Positions 26,401 through 29,400 of a DNA stretch of 64,000 nucleotides are shown piece after piece. The notes below the pieces were generated by a model. The model was given only the letters and a program-made list of their open reading frames with translations, ran no database searches and was not told where the DNA came from. Origin of the DNA: the human T2T-CHM13v2.0 reference genome, Homo sapiens; NCBI RefSeq assembly GCF_009914755.1, contig NC_060928.1, one strand, 5' to 3'. Both the position numbers and the translations under genes were made by a program. Numbering within the stretch: position 1 is the stretch's first letter; each line of letters begins with the position of its first letter.

Positions 26401-29400
26401 GATACTGTGGGTTAGGATTTTGGACAGGGCATAGCAGGCATGACTTGCCTGTGTTCCACCGTGACTCTGGTTCATTTGGGAAGACATTAAGGCCAAGTGT
26501 TGACAGCTGGGTGAGAGATGATCTGTAGTATTGACTATGTCTGACATGAGACATTAGCTTAGGAGGACTCAAGGACTAAAATTGCTAATGGAGCATCTGT
26601 AAGTGGCCTCTACTTATGGTTCGGGCTTTCTCAGTATGTAGCAGCCTCAGAATAGTGTATGTCTTTACAAAAAAAATTTTATTTTATTTTTTTAAATTTT
26701 TGAGACAGAGTCTCGCTCTGTTGCCCAGGCTGGAGTGCAGTGGCGCGATCTCAGCTCCTGCGAGGAGGCGGACCGCCCATTCCGTGCCCGGTAGCCGCGA
26801 GGGACCGGTGGTAGCCGCGAGGGACGGGCGGCGGGCTCGGTGCTGTGGCGAGGCGGGGATGGCACTCCCCCCCGCCGCCCCGTGGGGCGGCCCCGACTTT
26901 CGGGCGGTGAGTGAGAGGCGGGCCCTGCAACCTCTGTCTCCTGGGTTCAAGCAATTCTCTTGCCTCAGCCTCCTGAGTAGCTGGGATTACAGGCATGTGC
27001 CACCCTGCCTGGCTAATTTTTGTCTTTTTTAGTAGAGACAGGGTTTTGCCATATTGGCCTGGCTGGTCTCGAACTCCTGACCTCAGGTGATCCACCGACC
27101 TTGGCCTCCCAAAGTGCTAGGATTACAGGCCTGAGCCACCCCTACTTTTTAATGACAGCTCAGGGCTCCAGAAGGAAGTGTTTTAGCAAACATGACAGAA
27201 ACTTCATTGCCTTTTCTGACCTGGCTTCTGAAGTCATGCAGCATTGCTTCAGCTGCATTCTCTTAAGTTACAGGAGAGTCAAAATCTACCCGATTCAAGG
27301 AGAGGGTGCATAGACCACTATATGTGATGATAGGAGTGTCAAGATCACATTATAGAAGACCATGTCGGATGGGAGATAGGCTTGTGGCCATCTTTGGAAA
27401 ATGCAAACTTTCATACCTGTACATGTATGAAATGTTGCTATAATAGATTGCCCCACCTTAGGGTATTGCCCAGTTGTTGGAATCCTTCCATGGCTCTGCC
27501 CCCTTACCCTGTTCTCTGACTCTAGTGTCTGAAAATCTTGCTGATCAATAAAATGGAAAACTTAACATTCATACAACTTACATTGAACCTTTCTAATAAA
27601 CCTCTTTTTATATTGGAAGAATACCTGTGTGACATAGACATAAATTATTTTATTAATGTAATTGAAATTTTAGAAAAGTGGGGTGAAAGCATTACTTATT
27701 CAGCAGAAAGTAAATATGTTTCTGCTACTTAAAGTCATAAGAGCAAGATGTTAACTAAGTGGCATCTCATTGCAAATGAGTACAATATTTTTGTTTTTAC
27801 AGATATGCAATATGATGAGGATGATGATGAAATCACCCCGGATTTGTGGCAAGAAGCATGCTGGATTGTAATCAGGTAACTTTGGACCAAACTGAATTAG
27901 CCTGAAAAGGCACTTTAGATTTCCTGCTTATTCTTCTTGATAAATAGCTCTTCTATATAAATATGCTACATGAGAGTAGTTATTTTATTTATATATTTAA
28001 CATTTTAAGTATTTCAGATCTAAAAGTTACACAAAGAATTCATTTAATCATTTTAACCAGATTCCGAAAATGTTACCCTGTACTACATTTCTTTGTCTTT
28101 TTCTCTTTTTGTATATATATATTTTTTTCTGAAACATGTGAGAGTAACTTGCAGATCATTTGACCCTGGGAGGTTGAGGTTACAGTGAGCGAAGGTCGCA
28201 CCGCTGCACTCCAGTCTTGGTGATAGAGTGAGACCCTGTTTCCAAAAAAAAAAAAGAATAACTGCAGACATAAGAACATTCTTTTACATAATCACAATTA
28301 TGGTGATCTTATTTAATCTATAGACCTTACCCACATTTTGCCAGTTGTCCCACTGGTGTTTATAGCAAAATACAAATTTTTCTGATCCTGGATCCAACCT
28401 AGGATCACATATTGCATTTACTTGTCATGGCATGTTCTTTTGTTTCCTTTAATCTGGAACAGTTCCTCAGTGTGTCTGTTCTTTTTTTTACCTTGACATT
28501 TTTGAAGAATACGGGCCAGTTACTTTTTAGGATGCCTTTCCGTTTAGGTTTGTCTGATATTTCTCATAATTAGATTCAGATGATTACTTTTGGCAGAAGT
28601 GACATAGTCTCAGTGCATCATATCAGGAGGCATGTTTGTTTCATTACTAGTAATGTTAATTTGATTGCTTGGTTTTCTCATTATTTTAAATGGACAAAGT
28701 TAAAATTGGTTGTATTTCATTCCAAATTCCCATCCAATTCTAAGTGTAACTAAATGTAATAAAATTACGAGAAGCCTTGTATAGGTAAGAAAAGTAACTT
28801 ATAAGTGATAAAGTAACATCCTGTAAGGTTAGGATGTTAAAGGCTTATAACTCTTCTCTCATCCCCTGACACCTGTTTTATATACAATAAGATGATGATG
28901 GATGCCTCTCTGAGCCCCATCAGCTCCAAGGTGCATGTCCTTTTGGTCAACATTCTCTCTTTTCAAAGAACACATGCTTCCAACATTCTGCCAGTTGTAT
29001 TCAGAGTATAACTGAATAACCTTTCTTGAACGTTGTTTTGTGAAAGAGATACTGATTTGCCTATAATCCCAGCACTTTGGGATGCTGAGGCAGTCAGATC
29101 ACTTGAGGTCAGGAGTTGGAGACCAGCCTGGCCAACACAGTGAAGCTCCGTCTTTACTAAAAAATACAAAAATTAGATGGGTGTGGTGGCGCACACCTGT
29201 AATCCCAGCTACTTGGGAGGCTGAGGCAGGAGAATCACCTGAAATTGGGAGGCAGAGTTTGCAGTTAGCTGAGATGATGTCACTGCACTCCAGCCTGGGT
29301 GGCAGAGTGAGACTCTGTCTCAAAAAAAAAAAGATGTTGATTCAGCATGTTGTCCAGAATCTTACAAAAAAAAGTATTGAAAGCCAGGTGCTGTGGTGTG

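What the first reader, a model, noticed from the sequence alone, without database searches (positions are those of the whole stretch)
26705..27875. The insert may create a new POLR2B exon (alternative first exon or poison cassette)
Seen: consensus donor GTGAGT at 26907-26912 on the POLR2B sense strand, ~900 nt upstream of exon 2. An ATG in strong context (GGGATGG, 26859) gives 16 codons ([16 protein letters not shown]) up to that donor. The host antisense Alu supplies the classic T-tract-GAGACAG acceptor (AG at 26703-4 and 26707-8). Model A: cassette 26709-26906 (198 nt) puts TAG (26792-26794) in frame with exon 1. Model B: the GC-box-rich insert acts as an internal promoter; its ATG becomes an out-of-frame uORF ending in exon 2, and the in-frame ATG at 27805 would give RPB2 lacking 7 N-terminal residues. 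Alu exonisation is established; a donor and promoter supplied by captured DNA would be unusual in an essential Pol II gene.
Basis: inference. Interest (0 to 1): 0.8.

Follow-up and report, generated by a model that had tools for sequence, protein, structure and literature searches.

The report
Known Alu-plus-rDNA-spacer exon in POLR2B
The predicted exon in POLR2B intron 1 is real but already annotated and catalogued as a rarely used Alu exon; the one added detail is that its splice donor lies in a captured piece of ribosomal DNA spacer and arose there by CpG decay.

Summary
The donor at 26907 is in use. The hub's RefSeq table lists exon 26729-26906. A published catalogue (Attig et al. 2016, eLife, source data) lists the same 178-nt exon as annotated "alternative" Aluexon:4465, with GTEx inclusion of 0.6-4.9% (28 of 30 tissue values seen). 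So this is already known.

What I add:
- The GC-rich insert (26758-26924) is a 167-nt fragment of the rDNA 5'ETS, 281-445 nt upstream of 18S, antisense to POLR2B. It sits cleanly inside an antisense AluSz6.
- The donor GT, the upstream ATG and both TAG stops lie at positions that are CpG in present-day rDNA. They were therefore most likely created by CpG decay after capture, not delivered ready-made.
- The main 5' boundary is the Alu acceptor CCCAG|G at 26727-8, not 26705/26709. The catalogue lists 26709 only as a weak cryptic site.

As a cassette after exon 1 the exon shifts the frame and stops after 34 codons, which predicts NMD. As a first exon it would give RPB2 lacking 7 residues, behind a strong overlapping uORF. 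Promoter activity is untested. Interest is low.

The parts
26678..26757 (-). 3' part of the host Alu (end of right arm plus A-tail, read as a T-tract on the POLR2B strand). Listed as AluSz6 in Attig 2016 (hg19 57851393-57851480 = window 26678-26765).
   Evidence: Colinear alignment to a consensus of 42 window Alus. Rfam SRP-like hit on the minus strand, below the gathering score. Supplement row. Coordinate mapping.
26758..26924 (-). 167-nt insert derived from the rDNA 5' external transcribed spacer (281-445 nt upstream of 18S). The spacer's sense strand is the window minus strand, so it is antisense to POLR2B.
   Evidence: the genome search own: 77-78% identity, E about 1e-26, to the minus strand of a 46,970-bp tandem array on C13. 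18S starts at L003:1946 (+) and the match is at L003:1501-1665. Alignment.
26925..27141 (-). 5' part of the same host Alu (rest of right arm, left arm). One base (A) is missing at the junction, and CTGC is present at both junctions.
26727..26728 (+). AG of the main acceptor (TCTCGCTCTGTTGCCCAG|G) in the antisense Alu right arm.
   Evidence: Published MaxEnt 2.84 and longest U-tract 7. The 7-T run is at 26687-93.
26707..26708 (+).
   Evidence: Attig 2016 Aluexon:3015, 'cryptic', MaxEnt 1.19. Mapping.
26729..26906 (+). 178-nt alternative POLR2B exon: 29 nt of Alu followed by 149 nt of rDNA-spacer insert.
   Evidence: Hub RefSeq table. Attig 2016 Aluexon:4465, chr4:57851444-57851621 (hg19), 178 nt, 'alternative', GTEx PSI 0.006-0.049.
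26907..26912 (+). Donor GTGAGT. The T at 26908 (and at 26912) aligns to the C of a CpG in present-day rDNA.
   Evidence: The 31-mer around it is unique in the genome at up to 3 mismatches. It matches MAG|GTRAGT at 7 of 9 positions, against 5-9 for the gene's 18 donors in the window.
26859..26861 (+). Upstream ATG in GGGATGG. Its T (26860) aligns to an rDNA CpG. It opens a 38-codon ORF that overlaps Met8 out of frame and ends at TAA 27869-71.
26812..26814 (+). TAG that ends the reading frame from exon 1 when the exon starts at 26729 ([34 protein letters not shown]).
26792..26794 (+). TAG in frame when the exon starts at 26709. It aligns to CG in rDNA (CG>TA).
26790..26829 (+). Two tandem 20-nt copies (GGTAGCCGCGAGGGAC + 4 nt), each carrying one of the TAGs. 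The second copy lies where rDNA has a (CG)n run.
   Evidence: Tandem Repeats Finder did not report it.
27803..27875 (+). POLR2B exon 2, with the in-frame ATG 27805-7 (Met8).
   Evidence: Hub table.

Best explanation
This is a real, already annotated, low-inclusion alternative exon of POLR2B (26729-26906) assembled from two captured sequences. An AluSz6 inserted antisense into intron 1; its orthologous position is reported in rhesus but not marmoset. A 167-nt piece of the rDNA 5'ETS was later captured inside that Alu, probably at a repaired break, since only 1 nt of the Alu is lost and CTGC occurs at both junctions. In its new, presumably methylated, location the fragment lost CpGs. One C>T change turned GCGAG into GTGAG, making a full GTGAGT donor 178 nt downstream of a standard Alu acceptor (CCCAG|G). 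Other CpG changes made an ATG and two TAGs. The spliceosome now occasionally joins exon 1 to 26729 and 26906 to exon 2, at about 1-5% of junctions in GTEx tissues. The 178 nt shift the frame and translation stops after 34 codons at TAG 26812-4, so these RNAs should be NMD substrates with no protein product. I read this as tolerated splicing noise of a primate-specific exon, not as a regulator. Shown here: the anatomy, the rDNA origin, and the frame consequences. Taken from print or the hub table: the annotation and the inclusion values. Inferred: capture at a break, the direction of the CpG changes, NMD, and lack of function.
For: Hub RefSeq table: exon 26729-26906 in other POLR2B transcripts. 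Attig 2016 source data: Aluexon:4465 at chr4:57851444-57851621 (+) is 178 nt and 'alternative' (annotated in UCSC). Its host Alu is AluSz6, the oldest species with the position is rheMac3, and 3'ss MaxEnt is human 2.84, chimp 3.46, gibbon 3.46, rhesus 4.12. Mean skipping count is 42.5, and PSI ranges from 0.006 (muscle) to 0.049 (liver); 28 of 30 tissue values were visible. That PSI was computed from upstream, downstream and skipping junction reads, so the exon was treated as internal. Four checks support the hg19-to-window mapping: equal length of 178; the second listed site 20 nt upstream falls on an AG; the Alu fragment ends at the insert junction; and the longest T run is 7. rDNA origin. 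CpG origin of GT, ATG and TAG; 14 of 38 mismatches are C>T or G>A at rDNA CpGs, including 26860, 26908, 26912 and 26792-3. The rDNA 39-mer with GC at the donor position was found 224 times, and all 100 listed copies are exact. Frameshift and stop. Clean single insertion in one Alu.
Against: RefSeq gives POLR2B coding (NM_) variants: NM_001303268.1 is listed for POLR2B. From memory only, I recall a 1167-aa isoform, which is 1174 minus 7. That would fit the exon being modelled as a first exon, not a cassette. I did not see raw junction counts. The published PSI averages upstream and downstream junctions, so the exon 1>26729 junction could be much rarer than 26906>27803. The direction of the CpG changes assumes that present-day rDNA keeps the ancestral state; the 5'ETS evolves fast, and no other primate sequence was available. 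NMD sensitivity of this exon was not seen in any data I could open. The insert keeps more CpGs than its host Alu (15 of 28 against 4 of 20, Fisher p=0.035). That could mean youth, or germline hypomethylation as at a promoter.
Confidence: 0.75

Rival explanations
1. True alternative first exon. Transcription starts at or near 26729, driven by the GC-rich rDNA-derived block, which acts as a small CpG-island promoter. The mRNA carries a strong-context uATG (26859) whose 38-codon ORF overlaps Met8. Leaky scanning then gives RPB2 lacking residues 1-7. This may coexist with cassette use.
For: The 200-bp stretch 26741-26940 has GC 0.76 and CpG o/e 0.92. There are 5 GC boxes. CpG retention is higher than in the host Alu. 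An NM_ accession exists for a POLR2B variant. I recall, but did not see, a 1167-aa isoform. The frame logic was checked.
Against: The annotated start follows CAG|G with 12 of 17 pyrimidines upstream, which is an acceptor-like position. It lies about 30 nt upstream of the insert, and all 5 GC boxes lie downstream of it. Attig 2016 quantified the exon as an internal exon with a skipping junction. The hub lists no RefSeq functional element there. The strong uATG would suppress the main ORF.
Confidence: 0.3
2. Regulated poison exon: inclusion is tuned (for example by hnRNP C, Pol II speed or nucleolar stress) to set RPB2 levels through NMD.
For: A premature stop is predicted for either acceptor. 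The gene is essential and dosage-sensitive. The exon's acceptor position is reported in chimp, gibbon and rhesus and is classed 'Constant'.
Against: Inclusion is low and flat across tissues (maximum delta-PSI 0.043). The exon is primate-specific. The acceptor is weak and, if anything, weaker in human than in rhesus (2.84 against 4.12). No paper in the searched library links POLR2B to a poison, cryptic or Alu exon.
Confidence: 0.05
3. Artefact: reads from Alu or rDNA mis-mapped to this locus, so no real exon exists.
For: The exon is made of two repeat-derived sequences. rRNA precursors are very abundant.
Against: The 31-mer around the donor is unique in the genome at up to 3 mismatches (1 match, itself). 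The insert is only 77-78% identical to rDNA and is antisense to it. Inclusion was measured from junction reads anchored in unique flanking exons. RefSeq and UCSC annotate the exon independently.
Confidence: 0.03

Closest known systems
Exonised antisense Alu elements (Alu exons) as catalogued by Attig et al. 2016 eLife (PMC5115870); the concept goes back to Sorek 2002 and Lev-Maor 2003 (recalled)
   Same: An antisense Alu in an intron, with the acceptor taken from the Alu right arm behind the T-tract. Inclusion is low, a frameshift and premature stop result, and the exon is primate-specific. This very exon is entry Aluexon:4465.
   Different: The donor and 149 of the 178 exon nucleotides are not Alu. 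They come from an rDNA-spacer fragment inserted into the Alu. The acceptor is the CCCAG|G site, not the T-tract-proximal GAGACAG sites.
Dispersed rDNA-like fragments and rDNA pseudogenes in the human genome (Robicheau et al. 2017, PMC5381670)
   Same: A degraded piece of the 45S unit (spacer) lying outside the rDNA arrays.
   Different: Here the piece is short (167 nt), sits inside an Alu within a gene, and contributes a used splice donor. POLR2B occurs 0 times in that paper's main text.
Splice sites and start codons born by CpG decay in young repeats (general knowledge, recalled; for example C>T activation of Alu donors)
   Same: A single CpG>TpG transition converts GC into a GT donor.
   Different: The substrate is a 90% GC rDNA spacer (41 CpGs in 165 nt) rather than the Alu itself.
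Templated or captured insertions at repaired double-strand breaks (recalled: Onozawa et al. 2014 PNAS; not read here)
   Same: A short foreign fragment is inserted, with about 1 nt lost and 4-nt junction homology.
   Different: The mechanism is not demonstrable from one genome. The spacer and the Alu share orientation, so reverse-transcriptase template switching during Alu insertion cannot be excluded.

Membership tests
Alu exon (exonised antisense Alu) | Alu lies in an intron, antisense to the gene | tested here: met
   With the insert removed, the host aligns colinearly with 42 window Alus in the antisense sense. SRP-like Rfam hits are on the minus strand.
Alu exon (exonised antisense Alu) | At least one splice site lies inside the Alu | tested here: met
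   The AG at 26727-8 lies in the Alu right arm. This is the criterion used by Attig 2016.
Alu exon (exonised antisense Alu) | Both splice sites and the exon body are Alu-derived (classical form) | tested here: not met
   The donor at 26907 and positions 26758-26906 of the exon are rDNA-spacer-derived.
Alu exon (exonised antisense Alu) | Junction-read support in transcriptomes | not testable with these tools
   No RNA-seq data here. The published table gives GTEx PSI 0.006-0.049 and a mean skipping count of 42.5.
rDNA-derived dispersed fragment | Significant similarity to the 45S rDNA unit, located outside an array | tested here: met
   77-78% identity over 168 nt, E about 1e-26, to the array on C13. 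The match lies 281-445 nt upstream of 18S. The locus itself is on C4.
Poison (NMD-triggering) cassette exon | Inclusion places a stop more than about 50 nt upstream of a later exon junction | tested here: met
   TAG 26812-4 lies 92 nt before the exon's own donor (acceptor 26729). TAG 26792-4 applies for acceptor 26709.
Poison (NMD-triggering) cassette exon | The isoform rises when NMD is blocked, and inclusion is regulated or conserved | not testable with these tools
   The UPF1 and hnRNP C knock-down values of Attig 2016 sit in a Dryad deposit that I could not open. Tissue variation is small (maximum delta-PSI 0.043).
Alternative promoter / first exon | The exon start is a transcription start, not an acceptor | tested here: inconclusive
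   The start is directly preceded by CAG with 12 of 17 pyrimidines, which argues for an acceptor. Capped 5'-end data are not available here.
Alternative promoter / first exon | CpG-island-like composition around the start | tested here: met
   26741-26940 (200 bp) has GC 0.76 and o/e 0.92. This composition is inherited from a 90% GC source, so it is weak evidence.

The most novel reading that the evidence does not exclude
The captured rDNA-spacer block has been co-opted. It would act as a small unmethylated CpG-island promoter, or as a tuned poison exon, in the gene for the second-largest Pol II subunit. Its RNA is antisense to the pre-rRNA 5'ETS. This could couple POLR2B output to nucleolar state, for example through factors that bind rDNA spacer sequence or through pairing with pre-rRNA.
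Probability: 0.04. Interest if true: 0.6.

Novelty: already known. Interest (0 to 1): 0.2.

Why it matters
The exon itself is ordinary: it is annotated, catalogued and included at a few percent. Two small points may be useful.

- It is a clear two-step case of exon birth. A repeat supplies the acceptor, a captured rDNA spacer supplies the raw material, and CpG decay makes the donor, an ATG and the stops. My searches of the held library found no paper pairing exonisation with the external transcribed spacer and none on this POLR2B exon.
- The RefSeq coding isoform that I recall starting at this exon may rest on an exon that is mostly spliced as an internal, frame-breaking cassette. That bears on how intron 1 variants near 26700-26912 in an essential gene are read.

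Tried and rejected
- Paper searches returned 0 papers for POLR2B with Alu and exonization, with 'Alu exon' and with 'poison exon'. POLR2B with 'cryptic exon' gave 1 paper (mouse TDP-43; judged irrelevant from title and abstract start, not read). POLR2B with 'alternative first exon' gave 4 papers, 3 listed, none on this locus by title or abstract. 'exonization' with 'external transcribed spacer' gave 0.
- Accession and transcript-id search gave 1 paper, which only lists NM_001303268.1 in a table. I therefore could not learn the exon chains of the two other RefSeq transcripts. The isoform lengths 1167 and 1099 aa are recalled, not seen, and I could not derive 1099 from the exons in the window.
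- Supplements: Zarnack 2013 had 0 hits, but only 2 small files (16,270 characters) are held, so its exon tables were not seen. Lin 2016 had 0 hits in 5 files. Shen 2011 PNAS is not held.
- In Attig 2016 neither the gene name nor the Ensembl id occurs; the exon was found by coordinate.
- Tandem Repeats Finder did not report the 20-nt duplication; it is visible by eye.
- The bacterial promoter scanner was not used because it does not apply to this organism.
- No primate genomes are held, so the insert could not be dated and the ancestral state of 26908 could not be read.
- I considered that the insert came in with the Alu from a source copy already carrying it. I rejected this because the insert's sequence is found only once in the genome.
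- The new-exon ATG would be in frame with exon 4 if exons 2 and 3 were skipped. This is mechanical only, and nothing I saw supports such a transcript.
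Full report
**1. Observation**

- GTGAGT lies at 26907-26912, preceded by exonic GCG.
- ATG 26859-61 sits in GGGATGG. It opens 16 codons ([16 protein letters not shown]) that end exactly at 26906.
- AG dinucleotides lie at 26703-4 and 26707-8, and also at 26709-10 and 26727-8.
- A cassette 26709-26906 would be 198 nt, with TAG 26792-4 in frame with exon 1.
- From the insert's ATG the frame runs into exon 2 and stops at TAA 27869-71 after 38 codons. 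ATG 27805 is Met8 of RPB2.

The donor motif alone means little. GGTGAGT occurs 3 times in the window against 6.9 expected, and 95 of 100 shuffles reach 3. Between 26700 and 27802 only 4 GT sites match MAG|GTRAGT at 7 or more of 9 positions. Of these, 26907 is the only one with a full GTRAGT.

**2. The host element and the insert**

With 26758-24 removed... the remaining sequence, that is with 26758-26924 removed, is one continuous antisense Alu.
- It aligns colinearly with other Alus of the window. BLAST gave 63 rows. I kept the 42 that cover at least 256 nt and dropped shorter rows and the self hits.
- Against the majority consensus of those 42, the host shows 249 matches, 26 mismatches (15 of them CpG transitions) and 4 gap columns. 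It keeps 4 of 20 consensus CpGs, and a single base (A) is missing exactly at the insertion point.
- CTGC stands at both junctions.
- Rfam gives SRP-like hits on the minus strand, below the gathering score (34 and 29.2 bits against 70).

A search of the window's own assembly with 26745-26930 found the locus itself plus hits on the minus strand of a tandem array on contig C13.
- Of 229 first-look candidates, 40 were scored: the locus itself and 39 array hits.
- The listed array hits are mostly 46,970 bp apart. Identity is 77-78% over query 13-180 (window 26757-26924), with E about 1e-26.
- In the fetched units Rfam places 18S rRNA on the plus strand from L003:1946. The match lies at L003:1501-1665.

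So the insert is a piece of the rDNA 5' external transcribed spacer, 281-445 nt upstream of 18S. It is antisense to POLR2B and in the same orientation as the host Alu. The 39-mer of rDNA that corresponds to the donor region occurs 224 times, always on the plus strand. The 100 copies listed (C13, C14, C15) are exact; 124 were not listed. The insert's own 31-mer around the donor is unique at up to 3 mismatches.

**3. How the signals arose**

I aligned the insert to the spacer over 26756-26925. The result was 126 matches, 38 mismatches and 9 gap columns. Of the 38 mismatches, 14 are C>T or G>A at positions that are CpG in rDNA. These include:
- 26908, where GC becomes the GT of the donor;
- 26912, the last T of GTGAGT, which one variant rDNA unit (L002) already has;
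- 26860, where ACG becomes ATG;
- 26792-3, where CG becomes TA, making TAG.

The second TAG (26812-4) lies in a 20-nt tandem copy that stands where rDNA has a (CG)n run.

The source segment is 90% GC with 41 CpGs in 165 nt. The insert keeps 17 of the 41 (15 of 28 in the well-aligned parts) and is still 78% GC with CpG o/e 0.96.

The captured DNA supplied GC-rich raw material. The donor, the ATG and the stops most likely came from later CpG decay. This is an inference: it assumes that today's rDNA keeps the ancestral state, and no other primate sequence was available.

**4. Is the exon used?**

The hub's RefSeq table lists exon 26729-26906 among the other POLR2B transcripts. Its end is exactly the predicted donor. 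Its start follows TCTCGCTCTGTTGCCCAG|G, an acceptor-like site inside the Alu with 12 of 17 pyrimidines at -20 to -4. The gene's 17 acceptors in the window have 10-16.

From Attig et al. 2016 (eLife, PMC5115870) I saw the abstract, passages of the main text, the header of source-data file 1, and the relevant rows of files 1 and 2. The source data list Aluexon:4465, chr4:57851444-57851621 (+) in hg19, with these values:
- length 178 nt;
- class 'alternative', meaning annotated in UCSC;
- host Alu AluSz6 at 57851393-57851480 (-);
- oldest species with the orthologous position: rhesus, with marmoset NA;
- group 'Constant Exon';
- 3' splice-site MaxEnt and longest U-tract: human 2.84 and 7, chimpanzee 3.46 and 7, gibbon 3.46 and 18, rhesus 4.12 and 12.

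With an offset of 57,824,715 these coordinates map to window 26729-26906. The Alu fragment maps to 26678-26765, and the 7-T run is present at 26687-93.

GTEx V6p inclusion is low. Mean skipping count is 42.5. The minimum PSI is 0.006 (muscle) and the maximum 0.049 (liver). The other tissue values I could see, 28 of 30 in all, lie about 0.008-0.032. The paper computes PSI as the average of upstream and downstream inclusion junctions over that average plus the skipping junction. The exon was therefore handled as an internal cassette between exons 1 and 2.

A second entry, Aluexon:3015 (57851424-57851442), is 'cryptic' and 'Emerging', with MaxEnt 1.19.

**5. Consequences**

After exon 1 the 178-nt exon shifts the frame. 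Translation reads [34 protein letters not shown] and stops at TAG 26812-4. That stop lies 92 nt before the exon's own donor and far upstream of later junctions. By the usual 50-55-nt rule (established knowledge) this predicts NMD. With the cryptic 26709 start the frame is kept, but TAG 26792-4 stops it.

If the exon were instead a first exon, the strong uATG would be translated across Met8, and RPB2 lacking residues 1-7 would depend on leaky scanning (inference).

I could not retrieve the exon chains of the other two RefSeq transcripts. One paper's table confirms only that NM_001303268.1 is a POLR2B accession. I recall, but did not see, isoforms of 1167 and 1099 aa. The former would fit a first-exon model.

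**6. First exon or cassette?**

For a cassette:
- the exon start is an AG|G acceptor in an antisense Alu;
- the published quantification used a skipping junction;
- all 5 GC boxes (26773, 26826, 26875, 26885, 26902) lie downstream of the annotated start, whereas promoter GC boxes usually lie upstream;
- the hub lists no RefSeq functional element there.

For a first exon:
- the recalled coding isoform;
- the island-like composition (200 bp at GC 0.76, o/e 0.92);
- somewhat higher CpG retention than in the host Alu (15 of 28 against 4 of 20, p=0.035; with all sites 17 of 41, p=0.15).

The composition is inherited from the source and the insert is younger than the Alu, so this evidence is weak. 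I put the cassette reading first (about 0.75 that it is the main use) and true first-exon use at about 0.3. The two can coexist.

**7. Comparison and novelty**

The exon belongs to the Alu-exon catalogue by that catalogue's own criterion, which is one splice site in an antisense Alu. It departs from the classical form because the donor and 149 of its 178 nt are rDNA-spacer-derived.

Dispersed rDNA-like fragments in the human genome are known (Robicheau et al. 2017; abstract start and passages seen). POLR2B occurs 0 times in that paper's main text.

My searches of the held library found no paper pairing POLR2B with Alu, poison or cryptic exons, and none pairing exonisation with the external transcribed spacer. 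Supplements of other Alu-exon papers were absent or too small to tell.

Verdict: the finding is correct but already known. The rDNA-spacer origin and the birth of the donor by CpG decay are a modest added detail.

Noticed in passing
L003:329-418 and L002:329-418 (rDNA units on C13): Rfam mir-663 scores above its gathering score (102.5 bits against 75) inside the rDNA 5'ETS, about 1.5 kb upstream of 18S.
   Followed up: no
G000:C13:5777513-9345165 and arrays on C14, C15: The rDNA array on C13 has a mostly regular spacing of 46,970 bp between listed hits; the last few units differ. All 224 copies of the tested 39-mer lie on the plus strand. The outlying unit L002 (C13:9344999) carries variant bases, for example T at the position equivalent to window 26912.
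   Followed up: partly
window 26758-26924 with 26678-27141: The spacer fragment and the host Alu have the same orientation. Only 1 nt of the Alu is lost, and CTGC stands at both junctions. This fits capture at a repaired break, but a double template switch of reverse transcriptase during Alu insertion is not excluded.
   Followed up: partly
window 26790-26829: There is a 20-nt tandem duplication inside the insert, at the place where rDNA has a (CG)n run. Each copy carries a TAG. The copies are 20 nt apart, so the two TAGs close two different frames.
   Followed up: partly
window 26859-26906 joined to 35849-35961: The 16-codon ORF of the new exon ends in phase 0. It would be in frame with exon 4 if exons 2 and 3 were skipped, giving an RPB2 with an rDNA-antisense-encoded N-terminus. 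I saw no evidence that such a transcript exists.
   Followed up: no
window 26964-27015 (-): A sub-threshold Rfam hit to mir-1268 (32.7 bits against gathering 83) lies inside the host Alu. It probably just reflects that this miRNA family resembles Alu sequence.
   Followed up: no
window 26758-26924 against 26678-27141: The insert keeps more of its source CpGs (15 of 28 well-aligned sites) than the surrounding Alu keeps of consensus CpGs (4 of 20). This may reflect a younger age or reduced germline methylation.
   Followed up: partly
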